This document shows positions 2,804-13,432 of a stretch of DNA of 64,000 nt, piece by piece. The notes beneath the pieces were generated by a model. That model did not search any database. It saw only the letters and a list, made by a program, of their open reading frames with translations, and was not told the origin of the DNA. How positions within the stretch are numbered: position 1 is the first letter of the stretch; every line of letters starts with the position of its first letter. The stretch is from Dictyostelium discoideum (taxonomy: Eukaryota): the NCBI GenBank assembly GCA_000004695.1, contig CM000154.2, positions 3,904,001-3,968,000 of the forward strand, in the 5' to 3' direction. The translations under genes were made by a program, and so were the position numbers.

Positions 2804-5269
2804 ATGAAAATAATTTTAACATTATCAATTTTTTTAATTTGTTTTTTACAACTTGGACAATCAGTTATTGATCCATCTCAAAATGAGGTCATGTCAGATT
2901 TACTATTTAATTTGTACGGTTATGATAAGAGTCTAGATCCATGTAACAGCAATTCTGTTGAATGTGATGATATCAATTCAACAAGTACCATCAAAACTGT
3001 TATATCTTTAAATTTACCTACTCCCTTACAAGAATATGTAATCACTCAAGATTTAACTCCACTCCAAAATTTAACCTATATGGAATTATATGAAAAAATT
3101 TATTTAACTTTATCCTTTTTTAAAAATATAAATAAATTAACTCAACTTGAAACAATGTTAGTAAAAAAAAACAATAAAAAAAAAATAAAAAATAAAAAAA
3201 AATTATATTAATATAAAAACTAATTAAAAATTAAAATAATAGAGTTACATTATCTTTTAATGTAACAATTCCAGATGATACAATTTTCCCAGCAAGTTTA
3301 GAAACATTTAGTATTTATAAACCATCAGTTCCATTAAGCATAGCAATTTTTGGATCAAATATTAAAAACTTATATGTAAATTCCCCTTTAACTGGTTACA
3401 GTATTCCAACTTTAATAAATGTCAATCCATATCTTGAAAACCTTCAACTCCCAGTAACTTACTATTCAGGTTTTCCTTCAAATATATCACTAGCATTCCC
3501 AAATTTACAATATTTAACCATCTATGTAAATAATGATATGGACCAAAATAATTACCACAACTTTTCCATTTCAAACATTGGAGTTTTTAAAAATTTAAAA
3601 GGTTTGGATATTGAATTTACTGATAGTTATAATCCTCAAGAGTTTTCAATTAATTCATTCTTATCAAATGTTCCAGTAATTGATAGTTTATATATTTATG
3701 GTCAAGGTGTAACCATTGACCCATCAGTTGGTATTATTGATCTTTCATACGTTAAGTCTAAAAAATTTTTAAGCATGTAGGTAGTAATATTCTTACAAAA
3801 TTTTTTTTAAATAATATTCACTTTTATTAACAATGTTAAAAATTAAAAAAAAAAATTTAGTAATATCCAAGAAAGTTCATTATTAAACAATTGTAAAGGT
3901 AAAAGTTTTAAATCACCAAAAAAAGCTTATTTCCGTTCTAATTATAATACATTTTCATATGCATGTATTGATTTTTCAAATCTTGCTTATTTTTATGATT
4001 ATTATAATGAATATGAACAATATTTACCAAATATTGATAATGCTCCATTACTCAATGAAATTTACATATCCGAATCTGTTGTAAGTGAATATATTTAACT
4101 TTAAATTAATTCGGAAAAAATATTATTTAATTTAACACTTTTAAATTTTTTATTTTTATTTTTTTAAAAAGGTTGTCGGTGATATTCCTGAATCATATTG
4201 TAGAATAAATTATTTGGGTTTAAACTATAACCAACTCAATGGAACAGCACCATCATGTATTCTATGTCTTGGTGGTAACAGAGGTGGTGACATAGTATTA
4301 CCAAATCCATTATTAAATTTCAATAAAACTTCTGAACCATATTGCCCAACTTTCAAAATCGATCAAAATTATACAAATTTAGTAGCAACTGATGGAATTG
4401 GAAAATTAATAATTACTGGTACTAATTTAGGTTGGTATGGAAATGATATAACACCAATTACCGCAAATTCAAAATTAGCCATTACCATTCCAAAGGGTGT
4501 TGGTACAAATAAGAGTATTACTGTTACTTTCCAAAATGGTGAACAAAGAACATTTAATTATAGTTACGTTCCTCCTTTCATTAAATCTTATGGTTTTTTG
4601 GAATTAGACAGTAATAAATATTTGACAATAAATGGTACTGGTTTCGATTTTGAGAACCCTAATATCATCACTATTAATGGTCAACAAATTACATTTTCTA
4701 TTGCATTGGGAGGAGGTGATAATGATGGTTTGATAGCATTGCCTATTGATGAATTACCAAATTTTGATAGTGAGACTAAATTTACAGTATCTACACTTGT
4801 AGGAGGTCAAAGTTCAAATGAAGTTACATTTTATTATTTCAACTCAATCAATATTACTGAAGAGAAATTAGTTTTAAATAATACAGGTGGTTCAGTAGAT
4901 ATTAATGGTTCATTTGGTACAAATAATATATCATTAGTTTCAATCTCAATCAATGGTACCAATTGTTTAGTTACATCATACACAAACTCAAAATTAACAA
5001 TTCAATATCCATCGAAACAAGTTGGTGATAATTATGTTTTAACTTTGAATGTTGGTGGTTATGCAGTTAATCTTGTTGTTGAATACATTGAAGGCGGTGA
5101 AACTCCAACACCATCAACAACACCATCAACAACACCATCAACAACACCATCAACAACTCCAAGTTCAACACCAACTCAATCACCTGGTGATGATGGATCA
5201 ACATCTTCAACATTATCAATTTCATTTTATTTAATTACTTTGTTATTATTAACACAACAATTTATTTAA
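2804..5269 (+). CDS. Surface glycoprotein paralog 1: signal peptide, LRR region, 3x IPT/TIG-like domains, (TPSTTPS)5 stalk, GPI-type C-terminal signal; 4 exons, ~734 aa
   Basis: Exons 2804-3156, 3243-3776, 3861-4080, 4172-5269. Donors GTTAGT, GTAGGT, GTAAGT; acceptors after AT-rich tracts (..aaaaag|GTTGTCGG). Frames verified against ORFs 2804.., 3538.. and 4214... N-terminus [20 protein letters not shown] is a signal peptide. '[13 protein letters not shown]' is a plant-type LRR. IPT-like blocks: '[31 protein letters not shown]', '[18 protein letters not shown]', '[22 protein letters not shown]'. C-terminus '[27 protein letters not shown]' is an omega-site plus hydrophobic tail. Confidence 0.8.
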
Positions 5270-5310
5270 TAATTAAAATAAATTTTCTTGATTTATACAA
5301 ATCTATTTTT

Positions 5311-5348
<38 letters not shown>

Positions 5349-6192
5349 TATACCTAATTTTAAACAGTTGTTTAATTGTTTTAAAAATAACAATGGTCAA
5401 GTGATTATTTGTTTAGTATGATTGATTAATATATTATTTAAGTAATATGAATAATAATTTCAAATTAACTTAATAAATGATAATAATATTTTAAATAAAA
5501 AAAAGTAAAAATAAAGAAATTTATATTTTAATTTAATAAAGTTAACAATGAATTAAATTTTTTATTTATTTATTTTTATATTTATTTATTTATGTAATCT
5601 GAAGTGATTTGAGGCTACGGTTTATCAGTAGTTGTGGTGGTGATTGTGTTGTTGATATGTTTCTTTGTTGTGCTTGTGCTTCTGTTACTAATGATATTTA
5701 TTTCTAAACAATCAAATAACTGTTTGAAAATAGTTTTTTTTTTATTGTTTTGGTAAATTAATAGTTTTTAATTATAAAAGAAAAAAAAAAATTTTTAGTG
5801 CCATTTCAGTGTGAAAACTCACTACCTTAAAGACAGCGAAATTTCAAAATAGTCCGAAAAAAAAAAAAAAAAAAAAAAATTTTTAATTCAAAATAAATAA
5901 AAGTGTTTTGGTATACTAAAAAATAAAAAAATAAACCAAACAATGTTTATTTCATATATACATATAGGTGGTTGATGGGATTAGAAAAATCTAAAAAAAA
6001 AATTAAATAAAAAATTAAAAAGGATATTATCAATAAAATTAACAAAACACAAAAATAAAATTAATTAAACAAATTTTTTTTTTTTTTTTTTTTAATAATA
6101 TTTCATATAATTTTTTTTTGAAGAATTAAGAAAAAAAATCTATTCTCAATGTAAGTAAAAAAAAAAAAAATAATGGGGTAGAGAGTCTTGAT

Positions 6193-6202
6193 TTATATTT
6201 GT

Positions 6203-6285
<83 letters not shown>

Positions 6286-10730: not shown

Positions 10731-10844
10731 TTTTATATTTTTAAAATACTTTTTTTTTTTTTTTAAAAAAATTATCATAATTTCTTTTTTTTTTAAAAAT
10801 TATTATTTATTTTCATTAATATTTTTTATAAAAAAAAAAAAAAA

Positions 10845-11260
10845 ATGAAAATAATTTTAACATTATCAATTTTTTTAATTTGTTTTTTACAACTTGGGCA
10901 ATCAATTATTGATCCATCCCAAAAAGATGTAATGTCAGATTTATTGTTTAATATGTACGGTTATAGTAAGGGTCTAGATCCATGTGATAATTCAGCATAT
11001 GTTATATGTGATTATATCAATTCAACAAGCACCTTTAAAACTGTTAAAGAGTTACACCTAGGTACTCCCTTACAAGAATATGTAATCACTCAAGATTTAT
11101 CCCCACTCCAAAATTTAACCTATTTGCAATTAAATTATAATAATATTTATTTAAGTTCTTCTTTTTTTAATTATGTTAATAAATTTTCTCAACTTTTGAG
11201 AATGTATGTAAAAATAAAAAAATATAATAAAGAATTTTAATACAAAACCAACAATCACCC

Positions 11261-11300
<40 letters not shown>

Positions 11301-11937
11301 AAAATATAAAAACTAATAATTTTTTAAAAATAATAGATATTTAGGATCCTATAATGAAACAATTCCAGATGATACAATTTTCCCAGCAAGTTTAGAATCA
11401 TTTTTAATTTATAATCCTTCAGCTCCTTTAGGTAGAGCAATTTTTGAATCAACTATTAAAAATATATTTATTTACTCTCCTTTAACTGGTTTCAGTTATC
11501 CAACTTTAATAAATGTCAATCCATATCTTGAATATCTTGCACTTCCAGTAACTTTCTATTCAGGTTTTCCTTCAAATATATCTCGAGTATTCACAAATTT
11601 AAATAAATTGGAAATTCGAGTATTTAATGATATGAATGAAAATAATTACAAAAACTTCTCCATTTCAAACATTGGAGTTTTCAAAAATTTAAAAGGTTTA
11701 GATTTTGAATTTAATGATGGTGATAATTCTCAAGAGTTATATATTCATTCATTCTTATCAAATGTTCCATTTATTAATTATATATATATATATGGTCTAG
11801 GTGCAACTATTGACCCATCTGCCGGTATTTTAGATCTTTCATACATTAAAGCTGATAATAATTTCGAATTGTATGCAGTAATATAATTAAAAAACAAAAT
11901 AATTAAATAATATTTACCTTTATTAACAACAATTTAA

Positions 11938-11981
<44 letters not shown>

Positions 11982-13432
11982 AGAGAAATTGATTCAAGTT
12001 CAATATTAAACAATTGTAAAGGCACTTGTATTAAATTTCCTAAATATTCATCATTCAATTCATATTATTGCGCATTTTCATATAATGCTATTGATTTTTC
12101 AAATCTCGTATATTTCAAAGATCTTTATAATGAGCATGAACAAAATTTACCAAATATTGATAATGCTCCATTACTTGATGAAATTTACATATCCTATTCT
12201 GTTGTAAGTATTGTTAACTATAACTTTATTTTATTAAAAAAAAAGTAATTAATTTAACATTTTAAATTTTATTTTATTTTAAAAAGGTTGTCGGTGATAT
12301 TCCTGAATCATATTGTAGGTTAAATAAATTAAACCTACGTAATAATGAACTCGATGGAACAGTGCCATCATGTATTCAATGTCTTGGTGGTGTCAAAGGT
12401 GGTGATATAGTTTTACCAAATCCACTATTAAATTTCAATAAAACTTCTGAACCATATTGCCCAAATTTCAAAATTGATCAAAATTATACAAATTTAGTAG
12501 CAACTGATGGAACTGGAAAAATAATAATTACTGGTACAAATTTAGGTTGGGATGGAAATGGTTTAACACCAATTATCGCAAATTCAAAATTAGCTATTAC
12601 CATTCCAAAGGGTGTTGGTACAAATAAGAGCATTAATGTAACTTTCCAAAATGGTGAACTAAGAACATTTAATTATAGTTACATTCCTCCTTTCATTAAA
12701 TCTTACGCTATTATAGAGCTTTTCGGTCAGAAATATTTCACAATAAATGGTACTGGTTTCGATTTTAATGATTCTAATAACATCACTATTAATGGTCAAC
12801 AAATTACATTTTTTAATGCATTGGGAGGAGGTGATAATGATGGTATGATAGAATTGTATTTTATTGAATTACCAAATTTGGCTACTGAGAGTAATTTTAC
12901 AGTATCTGCACTTGTAGGTGGTCAAAGTTCAAATGAAGTTACATTTTATTATTTCAACTCAATCAATATTACTGAAGAGAAATTAGTTTTAAATAATACA
13001 GGTGGTTCAGTAGATATTAATGGTTTATTCGGTACTAATAATACATCATTAGTTTCAGTCTCAATCAATGGTATCAATTGTTTAGTTACATCATACACAA
13101 ACTCAAAATTAACAATTCAATATCCATCGAATCAAGTTGGTGATAATTATGTTTTAACTTTGAATGTTGGTGGTTATGCAGTTAATCTTGTTGTTGAATA
13201 CATTGAAGGCGGTGAAACTCCAACACCATCAACAACACCATCAACAACTCCATCAACAACACCATCAACAACACCATCAATAACACCATCAACAACACCA
13301 TCAACAACACCATCAACAACTCCAAGTTCAGCACCAACTCAATCACCTGGTGATGATGGATCAACATCTTCAACATTATCAATTTCATTTTATTTAATTA
13401 CTTTGTTATTATTAACTCAACAATTAATTTAA
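10845..13432 (+). CDS. Surface glycoprotein paralog 3 (LRR + IPT/TIG + PT stalk + GPI signal); 4 exons, ~752 aa
   Basis: Exons 10845-11203, 11337-11870, 11984-12203, 12287-13432. Donors GTATGT, GTATGC, GTAAGT. Frames verified against ORFs 10845.., 11608.. and 12362... The stalk has 9-10 [14 protein letters not shown] units. The 3' flank 13540-13930 is homologous to the 3' flank of paralog 1 (5400-5590). Confidence 0.8.

What the first reader, a model, noticed from the sequence alone, without database searches (positions are those of the whole stretch)
2804..13432. Mosaic divergence: hypervariable N-terminal LRR exons versus homogenised 3' exon; stalk repeat number varies 3-5-9-10
Exon 4 of paralogs 2 and 3 is ~95% identical at nucleotide level (long identical runs), yet exons 1-3 of the same genes differ substantially. 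Examples: exon-1 '[19 protein letters not shown]' vs '[20 protein letters not shown]'; exon 3 of paralog 1 '[56 protein letters not shown]' vs paralog 2 '[56 protein letters not shown]'. This is the pattern expected when the structural/anchoring half is homogenised by gene conversion while the distal LRR head is under diversifying selection, as in recognition molecules. The TPSTTPS unit number also differs in every copy (5, 8-9, 9-10, 3), indicating replication slippage in the stalk.
Basis: seen in the sequence. Interest (0 to 1): 0.7.

Follow-up and report, generated by a model that had tools for sequence, protein, structure and literature searches.

The report
Mosaic evolution of amoeba LRR glycoproteins
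Three neighbouring Dictyostelium genes for leucine-rich-repeat cell-surface glycoproteins keep their last ~490 bases alike by copying from one another while the predicted binding face of the head changes unusually fast; this regime is already known from plant resistance-gene clusters, so it is a solid but not unprecedented case.

Summary
The mosaic is real, but its anatomy differs from the finding. Window 2804-13432 holds three intact tandem 4-exon genes (734, 746 and 752 aa). Each encodes a signal peptide, an LRR solenoid, three IPT/Ig-like domains, a (TPST)n stalk and a GPI-type tail. Two 3' relics lie downstream.

Divergence falls in two steps, not at the exon 3/4 junction. One step is at the end of the LRR domain, about residue 390. 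The sharper one is inside exon 4, at P1 ~4790-4805, P2 ~9055-9094 and P3 ~12881-12920.

In the last ~490 bp all three pairs differ at 2.2-2.8% of sites, against 10-17% upstream. Silent divergence of deep paralogs drops 3-5 fold there, while orthologues in a related genome show no drop. Two D. firmibasis paralogues 110 kb apart show the same step (dS 0.93 to 0.08). This indicates recurrent gene conversion rather than constraint alone.

Site models on the LRR domain find about 10% of codons with omega ~3.9 (LRT 70.9). All 15 high-posterior sites lie on predicted exposed LxxLxLxx x-positions.

Stalk units number 5, 8, 9 and 3. Copy number is 3 or more here and 10 in the related genome.

This is a known evolutionary regime in a family where I found no report of it.

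The parts
2804..5269 (+). Paralogue P1, 734 aa; exons 2804-3156, 3243-3776, 3861-4080, 4172-5269
   Evidence: GT-AG model with an intact ORF. The same exon structure, transferred to a related genome, reproduces annotated protein P0001 exactly.
7024..9594 (+). Paralogue P2, 746 aa; exons 7024-7376, 7531-8061, 8156-8375, 8458-9594
10845..13432 (+). Paralogue P3, 752 aa; exons 10845-11203, 11337-11870, 11984-12203, 12287-13432
2861..4250 (+). P1 segment encoding the N-cap and LRR solenoid (residues ~20-395, about 17 LxxLxLxx strands). The equivalents are P2 ~7081-8536 and P3 ~10902-12365. This is the hypervariable part.
   Evidence: AF2 model with pLDDT mostly 85-95 in this region. Foldseek matches BRI1, HAESA, FLS2 and InlA. 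LxxLxLxx register. Site-model LRT 70.9.
4781..5269 (+). Homogenised 3' block of P1: the end of IPT2, IPT3, the stalk and the GPI signal
   Evidence: Differs from P2 and P3 at 2.5-3.1% of sites, against 17% upstream. Change point at 4805. Silent-site drop.
9070..9594 (+). Homogenised 3' block of P2
12896..13432 (+). Homogenised 3' block of P3
5106..5161 (+). P1 stalk minisatellite (CAACACCATCAA)4.7, 5 TPS units
   Evidence: TRF
9395..9486 (+). P2 stalk minisatellite, 7.7 copies, 8 TPS units
13221..13324 (+). P3 stalk minisatellite, 8.7 copies, 9 TPS units
14533..15092 (+). F4: a 5'-truncated gene fragment covering the last ~185 codons. It is in frame, has a 9-nt deletion, and its stalk has 2.7 repeat copies (3 TPS units).
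   Evidence: tblastn, translation, block alignment, TRF 14956-14987
15320..15420 (+). F5: a degenerate relic of the stalk end and GPI-signal tail only
   Evidence: alignment
13972..14544 (.). Spacer segment homologous to window 977-1460 and to the spacer downstream of copy A5 in the related genome. It is part of the repeated array unit.
   Evidence: blastn

Best explanation
The region is part of a tandem, birth-and-death array of genes for GPI-anchored cell-surface glycoproteins. The window comes from a genome of the Dictyostelium discoideum group. The genes probably belong to the gp138 family.

Each protein has an LRR solenoid head of about 375 aa, three IPT/Ig-like domains, an O-glycosylation-type (TPST)n stalk of variable length, and a GPI signal.

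Three processes act on different parts of the same gene.
1. Positive diversifying selection changes the solvent-exposed x residues of the LxxLxLxx strands, which form the presumed ligand-binding face. The LRR scaffold stays under purifying selection.
2. Recurrent non-reciprocal exchange (gene conversion) among paralogues keeps the last ~490 bp almost identical. It has erased a paralogue split that is older than the divergence from the related genome. The upstream edge of the tract is fixed at about residue 572-581. This is probably because divergence upstream blocks heteroduplex extension, or because conversion of the variable part is selected against. The downstream edge is the end of flank homology, just after the stop codon.
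3. The 12-bp minisatellite inside that block gains and loses units, and whole genes are duplicated, truncated and lost.

Shown here: the gene models, the divergence steps, the silent-site contrast, the site-model signal and its structural mapping, and the copy-number difference. Inferred: the mechanism of exchange, why the tract boundary is fixed, GPI anchoring, O-glycosylation and ligand binding.
For: Gene models and architecture:
- Gene models.
- Pfam TIG scores 24.7 bits against a cut-off of 20.9.
- The AF2 model shows an LRR solenoid, beta-sandwiches, a disordered stalk and a C-terminal helix.
- Foldseek matches MET and plexin IPT domains and BRI1, FLS2 and InlA LRRs.

Mosaic divergence:
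- Sliding identity is 94-100% for all pairs from P1 ~4791 to the stop, then collapses to 50-70%.
- Change points.

Gene conversion:
- GY94 dS along the gene is 0.30-0.57 in the LRR part, 0.12-0.30 in the middle and 0.06-0.09 in the block.
- Model-free silent differences for deep paralogues are 10-12% versus 2-4%. For orthologues they are 5-6% versus 3-5%.
- Quartet sites change from 146:5:5 to 3:3:0.
- The nearest neighbour switches to within-genome paralogues after column 580.
- One fixed synonymous difference: TTA at P1 4936, P2 9225 and P3 13051, against TTG in all 10 copies of the related genome.
- Two D. firmibasis paralogues 110 kb apart give dS 0.93, 0.62 and 0.08, with the step at residue 572.

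Diversifying selection:
- The x positions were defined independently, from outgroup hydrophobicity plus predicted strands. They carry 3.74 distinct residues on average, against 1.9-2.1 elsewhere.
- With equal dS, dN at x positions is 0.16-0.18 against 0.05-0.07 elsewhere. Omega is 1.2-1.4 against 0.26-0.37 in the closest pairs.
- M2a versus M1a gives LRT 70.9, with 9.7% of sites at omega 3.9.
- Each third of the LRR, analysed with its own tree, gives LRT 20-27.
- All 15 sites with posterior above 0.9 fall in the x class (Fisher p 2e-8). The C block gives LRT 0.3.
- Null simulations give LRT 0, 0 and 0.
- Neighbouring genes between the same two genomes have omega 0.12-0.25 at dS 0.03-0.12.

Birth and death:
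- There are 10 copies in the related genome, of which 7 are intact, against 3 copies plus 2 relics here.
Against: - Pairwise omega at x positions is not significantly above 1 (LRT 0.2-0.4). Region-wide omega is 0.4-0.6.
- The site-model code is my own, and branch lengths were fixed from M0. Recombination can inflate such tests. It was only partly controlled, by analysing segments with separate trees.
- At strictly 4-fold sites the block contrast is only about 2-fold and not significant (p 0.08-0.8).
- For P2-P3 alone the silent contrast is not significant.
- The evidence that conversion post-dates the split of the two genomes rests on few sites: a 3:3 quartet count, one fixed difference, and 2.7% within against 4.9% between.
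- The block is also the most conserved part across species at the protein level: 63-76% against 36-41% for the LRR. Constraint therefore contributes to the contrast.
- The structure is a prediction with mean pLDDT 73.8, and residues ~400-500 score below 60.
- No functional data were obtained.
Confidence: 0.75

Rival explanations
1. Purifying selection alone. The 3' block is simply the most constrained domain, and no sequence exchange between paralogues is needed.
For: The block is the best conserved part across species at the protein level: 63-76% identity, against 36-41% for the LRR. Omega in the block is 0.2-0.5. Orthologue pairs also show their best change point at residue 579-581.
Against: Constraint on the protein does not lower silent divergence. 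Deep paralogues drop 3-5 fold at same-amino-acid codons, whereas orthologues do not. This also rules out silent-site constraint or a low mutation rate in the block. The paralogue split of 146 informative sites upstream vanishes to 3 in the block. In D. firmibasis dS falls from 0.93 to 0.08, with omega 0.81 in the block.
Confidence: 0.05
2. The LRR head drifts under relaxed constraint. There is no adaptive diversification, and the array is decaying or functionally redundant.
For: Region-wide omega is 0.4-0.6, which is below 1. Pairwise omega at exposed positions is 1.2-1.4 and not significantly above 1. The array contains pseudogene fragments and disrupted copies.
Against: M2a fits far better than the nearly neutral M1a: LRT 70.9, and 20-27 in each third. 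The omega>1 class of ~3.9 sits exclusively on predicted exposed x positions. The LRR scaffold remains constrained at omega 0.26-0.37. All 3 ORFs here and 7 of 10 in the related genome are intact, with conserved splice sites.
Confidence: 0.12
3. The shared 3' ends come from unequal crossing-over, that is chimeric duplications with breakpoints inside exon 4, and not from gene conversion.
For: Copy number differs strongly, 3 or more against 10. Two relics consist of 3' ends only, and F4 starts ~100 nt upstream of the block. The minisatellite could mediate misalignment.
Against: A crossover would also carry the downstream flank, yet P1's 3' flank is unalignable with those of P2 and P3 right after the stop: 50-70% identity. 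P1's flank is instead orthologous to that of copy A5. The same step occurs between D. firmibasis paralogues 110 kb apart. The block shows a patchwork of shared variants among copies.
Confidence: 0.15
4. Assembly artefact: collapse or mis-joining of tandem repeats made the 3' ends look identical.
For: Tandem arrays with near-identical segments and a minisatellite are hard to assemble.
Against: The blocks are not identical. Each copy has private differences and its own repeat number. The same pattern is seen in three independent assemblies, including contigs of more than 4 Mb.
Confidence: 0.02

Closest known systems
Dictyostelium discoideum gp138 cell-surface glycoprotein genes (GP138A/B and gp138-like genes; Fang et al. 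1993 Dev Biol 156:201, Aiba et al. 1997 J Biochem 121:238, as listed in the references of PMC2119896 and PMC2443395)
   Same: Both are multi-copy gene families for Dictyostelium cell-surface glycoproteins. The D. firmibasis homologue P0011 is named 'Cell surface glycoprotein' by UniRef. From my own memory, the gp138 genes are closely related paralogues of about this size.
   Different: Identity with gp138 could not be checked, because no reference sequence was reachable and near-identical proteins did not appear in the searches. The papers I could search did not report mosaic evolution, an LRR head or copy-number variation for this family.
Plant LRR resistance-gene clusters, for example the coffee SH3 CNL cluster (PMC3113787) and, from memory, tomato Cf-4/Cf-9 (Hcr9) receptor-like proteins (Parniske et al. 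1997 Cell 91:821)
   Same: Both are tandem arrays evolving by birth and death, with gene conversion between paralogues. Positive selection is concentrated on the solvent-exposed residues of xxLxLxx. In Hcr9 the N-terminal LRRs are variable and the membrane-proximal part is conserved.
   Different: The organism is an amoebozoan. Membrane attachment is through a GPI-type signal rather than a TM or NBS module. Three IPT domains and a TPST stalk lie between the LRR and the anchor. The ligand and function are unknown.
Dictyostelium tgr (Tiger) family, tgrB1/tgrC1 allorecognition genes (bioRxiv 10.1101/2025.10.22.684067; PMC12745789; PMC3188802)
   Same: Both occur in the same organism group and have IPT/TIG-containing surface proteins. 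Both show clustered paralogues, birth-and-death evolution, mosaicism between paralogues and rapid evolution.
   Different: Tgr proteins are transmembrane, consist of IPT/Ig repeats and have no LRR head. The proteins here have an LRR head and a GPI-type tail. Population-level polymorphism was not examined here.
Lamprey variable lymphocyte receptors (VLR; from memory)
   Same: The layout is similar: signal peptide, LRR solenoid, Thr/Pro-rich stalk, GPI signal. Diversity is concentrated on the concave LRR face.
   Different: VLR diversity is generated somatically by cassette insertion. Here it is germline paralogue diversity. VLRs have no IPT domains. There is no homology beyond the LRR fold.
Listeria internalin A (PDB 2omx, 1o6s)
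   Same: Both have an LRR solenoid followed by Ig-like domain(s), and InlA is among the top Foldseek matches. Both follow an adhesin-type 'head on a stalk' design.
   Different: InlA is bacterial and LPXTG-anchored. Sequence identity is 11-14%. The resemblance is structural only.

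Membership tests
LRR superfamily | Tandem LxxLxLxx(N) repeats forming a solenoid | tested here: met
   About 17 strands follow the LxxLxLxx register. The AF2 solenoid has pLDDT mostly 85-95. Foldseek matches BRI1, HAESA, FLS2 and InlA at E 1e-5 to 1e-4.
LRR superfamily | Match to a Pfam LRR profile above its gathering score | tested here: not met
   LRR_14 scores 16.6 bits against a cut-off of 40, LRR_1 15.2 against 20.6, and LRR_8 14.8 against 27. 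The repeats are irregular.
IPT/TIG domain proteins | Pfam PF01833 above its gathering score | tested here: met
   The scores are 24.7 and 24.2 bits against a cut-off of 20.9, at residues 513-593. Foldseek matches MET and plexin IPT arrays.
GPI-anchored surface protein | N-terminal signal peptide, plus a C-terminal hydrophobic tail preceded by small residues (omega region), with no cytoplasmic domain | tested here: inconclusive
   The sequence shows [20 protein letters not shown] at the N terminus and ...[29 protein letters not shown] at the C terminus. AF2 predicts a terminal helix. No GPI predictor or experiment was available.
gp138 family of D. discoideum | Sequence identity to the published GP138A/B products | not testable with these tools
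   No reference sequence was reachable. The only support is the UniRef name 'Cell surface glycoprotein' for a homologue and my memory.
Concerted evolution by gene conversion | Silent divergence between paralogues is reduced in the tract but not between orthologues | tested here: met
   Deep paralogues show 10-12% versus 2-4% (p 0.003-0.04). Orthologues show 5-6% versus 3-5%, not significant. dS values are.
Concerted evolution by gene conversion | Within-genome paralogues are closer than orthologues, with genome-specific fixed differences shared by the paralogues | tested here: met
   Nearest neighbours switch after column 580. Divergence is 2.7% within the window against 4.9% between genomes. 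There is one fixed TTA/TTG difference. Quartet counts are 3:3:0 against 146:5:5. The number of sites is small.
R-gene-like diversifying selection on LRRs | A class of codons with omega above 1 in site models | tested here: met
   M2a versus M1a gives LRT 70.9, and 20-27 per third. Null simulations give 0. The implementation is my own and is not recombination-aware.
R-gene-like diversifying selection on LRRs | Selected sites lie on the solvent-exposed x positions of xxLxLxx | tested here: met
   15 of 15 sites fall in the x class, which holds 112 of 346 positions (Fisher p 2e-8). The structure is predicted, not solved.
R-gene-like diversifying selection on LRRs | Pairwise Ka/Ks significantly above 1 at the x positions | tested here: not met
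   Omega is 1.2-1.4 in the three closest pairs, and the LRT against 1 is 0.2-0.4.
Tgr (Tiger) family | Transmembrane protein built of IPT/Ig repeats, without an LRR head | tested here: not met
   An LRR head occupies about half of the protein, and the only hydrophobic segment apart from the signal peptide is at the extreme C terminus.
Polymorphic recognition locus (balancing selection) | Excess within-species polymorphism, or trans-specific alleles | not tested
   Only one related genome was compared at the DNA level, and its flanks are about as diverged (dS 0.03-0.12) as the orthologous genes (dS ~0.10).

The most novel reading that the evidence does not exclude
The family may be a germline-diversified recognition-receptor repertoire of social amoebae. 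Its GPI-anchored LRR heads would bind variable external ligands: bacterial prey or pathogen surfaces, or partner gametes. A constant membrane-proximal module, kept uniform by gene conversion, would let every variant dock to the same partner or signalling platform. That would be a convergent counterpart of plant receptor-like proteins and lamprey VLRs in Amoebozoa.
Probability: 0.3. Interest if true: 0.7.

Novelty: new member of a known kind. Interest (0 to 1): 0.45.

Why it matters
D. discoideum encodes more than 150 LRR proteins, and it is not known whether any of them act as pattern-recognition receptors (PMC5758549). The cluster studied here shows three evolutionary hallmarks of recognition receptors:
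- positive selection confined to the predicted binding face
- birth-and-death changes in copy number
- a constant anchoring module maintained by gene conversion

A gp138-like gene was reported to be induced by phagocytosis or growth on bacteria (PMC2443395). The gp138 name itself comes from work on sexual cell fusion.

The analysis therefore nominates a small, defined set of genes and 16 specific residues. These can be used to test prey, pathogen or gamete recognition in a genetically tractable amoeba.

It also gives a clean natural example of a conversion tract whose upstream edge is conserved between species.

Tried and rejected
1. A GENECONV-like 'longest run of concordant polymorphic sites' test on the three copies was uninformative for the 3' block. 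All three copies are homogenised together, so few polymorphic sites remain there. The test only flagged short runs at 3839-3861 (probably poly-A alignment) and at 7805-7852. It was replaced by change-point, silent-site and quartet tests.

2. NG86 dN/dS gave omega 0.5-1.4. I treated this as biased upward by the extreme AT content, and GY94/F3x4 maximum likelihood gave lower values. Conversely, the ML dS values may be inflated. The model-free counts are the numbers I rely on.

3. The strict 4-fold-site comparison had too few sites, and it is biased towards conserved codons.

4. Exact look-up of the three proteins found nothing. The best hit in the big protein search was only 86% identical. AX4 and an AX4-like strain are in the collection for other family members. 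Near-identical proteins therefore seem to be unavailable, and the source strain and the gene names could not be confirmed.

The orthologue P0001 (= copy A5) was modelled instead.

6. Literature searches for gp138 returned only three Dictyostelium papers, none with sequence or evolutionary data. Araki et al. 2012 is not held.

7. I considered whether the high identity of the first ~100 nt (signal peptide) marks a second conversion tract, and rejected this. dS there is 0.20 for P1 versus P2 and P3, so the identity reflects constraint.

Full report
WHAT IS THERE

The window is extremely AT-rich, with GC of 9-35% per kb, which is typical of Dictyostelium. Between 2804 and 13432 there are three same-strand genes with identical 4-exon structure, canonical GT-AG introns and intact reading frames.
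- P1: exons 2804-3156, 3243-3776, 3861-4080 and 4172-5269 (734 aa).
- P2: exons 7024-7376, 7531-8061, 8156-8375 and 8458-9594 (746 aa).
- P3: exons 10845-11203, 11337-11870, 11984-12203 and 12287-13432 (752 aa).

A tblastn search of the window finds only one more piece, at 14541-15092. This piece, F4, is an in-frame but 5'-truncated fragment of the last ~185 codons. A further relic of the tail alone, F5, lies at ~15320-15420.

The first 1.5 kb of the window resembles the spacers that follow gene copies in a related genome. The array therefore probably continues to the left of the window.

PROTEIN ARCHITECTURE

Pfam detects an IPT/TIG domain above threshold and only sub-threshold LRR matches.

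I modelled the orthologue P0001 with AlphaFold2 (86% identical to P1; mean pLDDT 73.8). The model shows these parts:
- a signal peptide
- a confidently predicted solenoid over residues ~20-395
- three beta-sandwich domains over ~430-677, of which the first is poorly predicted
- a disordered stalk
- a C-terminal hydrophobic helix

Foldseek matches plant LRR receptor ectodomains and internalin A for the head, and the IPT arrays of MET and plexin for the body.

The sequence has 16-18 N-x-S/T sequons and a (T-P-S-T)n stalk. It ends in ...[27 protein letters not shown], which looks like a GPI-attachment signal. GPI anchoring is inferred and was not tested.

CHECKING THE OBSERVATION

All quoted peptides are present.

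P2 versus P3 exon 4 is 94.2-94.5% identical, with a longest identical run of 145 nt. Exons 1, 2 and 3 are 87.8%, 90.0% and 86.4% identical.

The sliding-window profile and the change-point analysis show that the sharp boundary is not the exon 3/4 junction. For all three pairs the best single change point lies inside exon 4, at P1 4805, P2 9055-9094 and P3 12881-12920.
- Upstream, differences per site are 0.17, 0.17 and 0.10.
- Downstream, they are 0.022-0.028 (Fisher p 5e-9 to 3e-21; 2dlnL 46-87).

The block is shared by all three copies. It starts inside a beta-strand of the second IPT domain and ends at the stop codon. Immediately after the stop, P1 becomes unalignable with P2 and P3.

In deeper paralogue pairs of the related genome, a second and softer step appears at about residue 390. 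This is the end of the LRR domain, about 20 codons into exon 4.

The stalk repeat is a 12-bp unit, with 4.7, 7.7, 8.7 and 2.7 copies in P1, P2, P3 and F4. That is 5, 8, 9 and 3 TPS units.

BRINGING IN RELATED GENOMES

The big protein search returned homologues only from other Dictyostelium assemblies, and the best was 86% identical.

I fetched 54 kb of the syntenic locus of assembly GCA_054859385.1 (locus tags ACTFIR, labelled D. discoideum).
- Its flanking genes align with the window at 86-96% nucleotide identity.
- The flanking genes give dS 0.03-0.12 and omega 0.12-0.25, apart from one low-complexity ORF.
- This genome is therefore a diverged lineage, not a near-identical strain.
- It carries 10 copies, A1-A10. 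Seven are intact with the same exon structure.

In the first 578 codons, orthology is unambiguous. P1 groups with A3, A4 and A5, and P3 groups with A10 (dS ~0.10-0.13). Quartet-informative sites are 146 for orthology, against 5 and 5 for the two alternatives.

IS THE 3' BLOCK HOMOGENISED OR MERELY CONSTRAINED?

The block is the most conserved part across species at the protein level: 63-76% identity, against 36-41% for the LRR part. Constraint certainly contributes. Constraint on the protein cannot, however, explain the silent sites.

- GY94 dS falls along the gene from 0.30-0.57 (LRR) through 0.12-0.30 (middle) to 0.06-0.09 (block).
- ML dS in so AT-rich a genome is model-sensitive, so I also counted the fraction of same-amino-acid codons that differ. 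Deep paralogues (P1-P2, P1-P3, A5-A10, A5-A8, A3-A9) drop from 10-12% to 2-4% (p 0.003-0.04). Orthologue pairs (P1-A5, P3-A10) show no drop, 5-6% versus 3-5%. The block therefore has no special silent-site constraint or low mutation rate. What is missing is the old paralogue divergence.
- In the block the orthology signal collapses to 3 sites, against 3 sites that group copies by genome.
- From column ~580 onward, the nearest neighbours of P1, P2 and P3 are each other, at 0-2.5% against 4-5% to their orthologues.
- One synonymous site is fixed differently. It is TTA in the three window genes (P1 4936, P2 9225, P3 13051) and TTG in all ten ACTFIR copies.
- Variable sites in the block form a patchwork shared among different copies.
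- In D. firmibasis, two paralogues 110 kb apart show the same profile, with dS 0.93, 0.62 and 0.08 and the step at residue 572.

Recurrent gene conversion of a tract with a conserved upstream edge is the best reading. Unequal crossing-over also shapes the array, as the copy number and the 3' relics show. It does not explain the block, because the downstream flanks are not shared.

For the P2/P3 pair specifically, the silent contrast is weak: 6.2% versus 2.9%, p=0.24. These two copies are simply younger duplicates, and their exon contrast is mainly a dN contrast.

IS THE HEAD UNDER DIVERSIFYING SELECTION?

Region-wide omega is below 1. It is 0.38-0.64 by ML and 0.5-1.0 by NG86. That is higher than in neighbouring genes but is not evidence of positive selection by itself.

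Variability is strikingly periodic. I defined the LxxLxLxx register independently of the ingroup, using the predicted strands plus positions that are hydrophobic in D. firmibasis and D. dimigraforme.
- The 112 x positions carry 3.74 different residues on average, against 1.9-2.1 elsewhere.
- With equal dS (~0.10), dN at x positions is 0.16-0.18 against 0.05-0.07 elsewhere.
- In the three closest pairs, omega is 1.2-1.4 at x positions (not significantly above 1) and 0.26-0.37 elsewhere (significantly below 1).

I wrote a codon site-model test (GY94 with F3x4, an NJ tree, branch lengths taken from M0) and ran it on 10 sequences.
- LRR domain: M2a beats M1a with LRT 70.9, and 9.7% of codons have omega ~3.9.
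- Each third of the LRR, analysed with its own tree: LRT 20-27.
- Two sub-clades: LRT 6.5 and 33.2.
- Middle region: LRT 15.3.
- 3' block: LRT 0.3.
- Simulations under M1a: LRT 0 in 3 of 3 runs.

All 15 LRR sites with posterior above 0.9 fall in the x class (Fisher p 2e-8). Their window coordinates are listed.

Recombination can inflate such tests, and the code is my own. I therefore rate diversifying selection as well supported but not proven.

COMPARISON WITH WHAT IS KNOWN

The regime has three elements: a tandem birth-and-death array, conversion between paralogues, and positive selection on solvent-exposed LRR residues. This is the textbook pattern of plant resistance-gene clusters, for example coffee SH3 (PMC3113787) and, from memory, tomato Cf-4/9.

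In Dictyostelium, comparable dynamics are described for the tgr allorecognition family (bioRxiv 10.1101/2025.10.22.684067). Those proteins are transmembrane IPT proteins without an LRR head.

The genes here are probably the gp138 or gp138-like genes, described as cell-surface glycoproteins implicated in sexual cell fusion. One gp138-like gene was reported to be induced by phagocytosis or growth on bacteria (PMC2443395). I could not verify this identity with the tools.

A profile search of 1.84 billion representatives shows full-length relatives in D. citrinum, D. purpureum and Synstelium, and more distant AX4 paralogues: DDB_G0269740, annotated only as an IPT/TIG domain-containing protein, and DDB_G0284073. 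None of the papers I could search reports the mosaic pattern for this family.

VERDICT

The feature is real and statistically strong.

The result is a new member of a well-known kind of evolutionary system. It is of moderate interest because it nominates a defined amoebal LRR receptor family, and 16 residues in it, for functional tests of recognition.

Noticed in passing
window 1-1566 (6-444 and 977-1566): The left edge of the window resembles the spacers that lie just downstream of copies A2 and A5 in the related genome (74-85% identity). The gene array probably continues beyond the left end of the window, so 'three copies' is a lower bound.
   Followed up: partly
window 524-1057 (- strand); related stretch 13972-14544: A 177-aa minus-strand ORF in the spacer has weak SdrD_B and CarboxypepD_reg-like matches below Pfam cut-offs. 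A decayed homologous stretch lies between P3 and fragment F4. The array unit therefore seems to carry a relic of another gene.
   Followed up: partly
L002+L001+L003 (GCA_054859385.1, JBTAPF010000012.1:3970331-4024279): The syntenic locus of the related genome has 10 copies. Copy A1 has a frame-disturbing exon 2. Copy A6 lacks most of exon 1. Copy A7 has about 1.2 kb of extra sequence in the exon 1/intron 1 region. The locus sits between a cytochrome P450 gene and a ribosomal L32 gene.
   Followed up: partly
window 7434-7493, 11262-11297, 11943-11978: Pure poly(A) runs of 60, 36 and 36 nt lie inside intron 1 of P2 and introns 1 and 2 of P3. P1's introns have shorter, interrupted A-runs. The intron length differences between the copies are mostly these runs.
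   Followed up: no
window 6196-6295: A (TATT)25 microsatellite lies in the P1-P2 spacer.
   Followed up: no
window ~3580-3730 (P1) and ~7868-8018 (P2): There is a short stretch of exon 2 where P1 and P2 are each other's nearest relatives, at 7.5% difference against 10.8-12.5% to P1's orthologue. It is a candidate small conversion tract inside the variable LRR region. Its significance was not tested separately.
   Followed up: partly
window 19457-23173 (- strand): A 1238-aa ORF has no Pfam match. Between the two genomes it gives dN ~ dS (0.064 against 0.067, omega 0.95) over the 376 codons that could be compared, and the alignment has many gaps. It is either fast-evolving or low-complexity.
   Followed up: no
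window 25842-28459 (+ strand): A bZIP-domain ORF (315 aa) is followed directly by a 554-aa ORF rich in Gln, Asn and Ser. They may be two exons of one transcription-factor gene.
   Followed up: no
protein searches: AX4 and an AX4-identical strain (ACTFIT) are in the protein collection for distant family members, yet no near-identical hit to the three window proteins was returned. The assemblies labelled D. discoideum with tags ACTFIR and ACTFIW differ from AX4 by about 4% in amino acids in DDB_G0269740, so they may represent a diverged lineage.
   Followed up: partly
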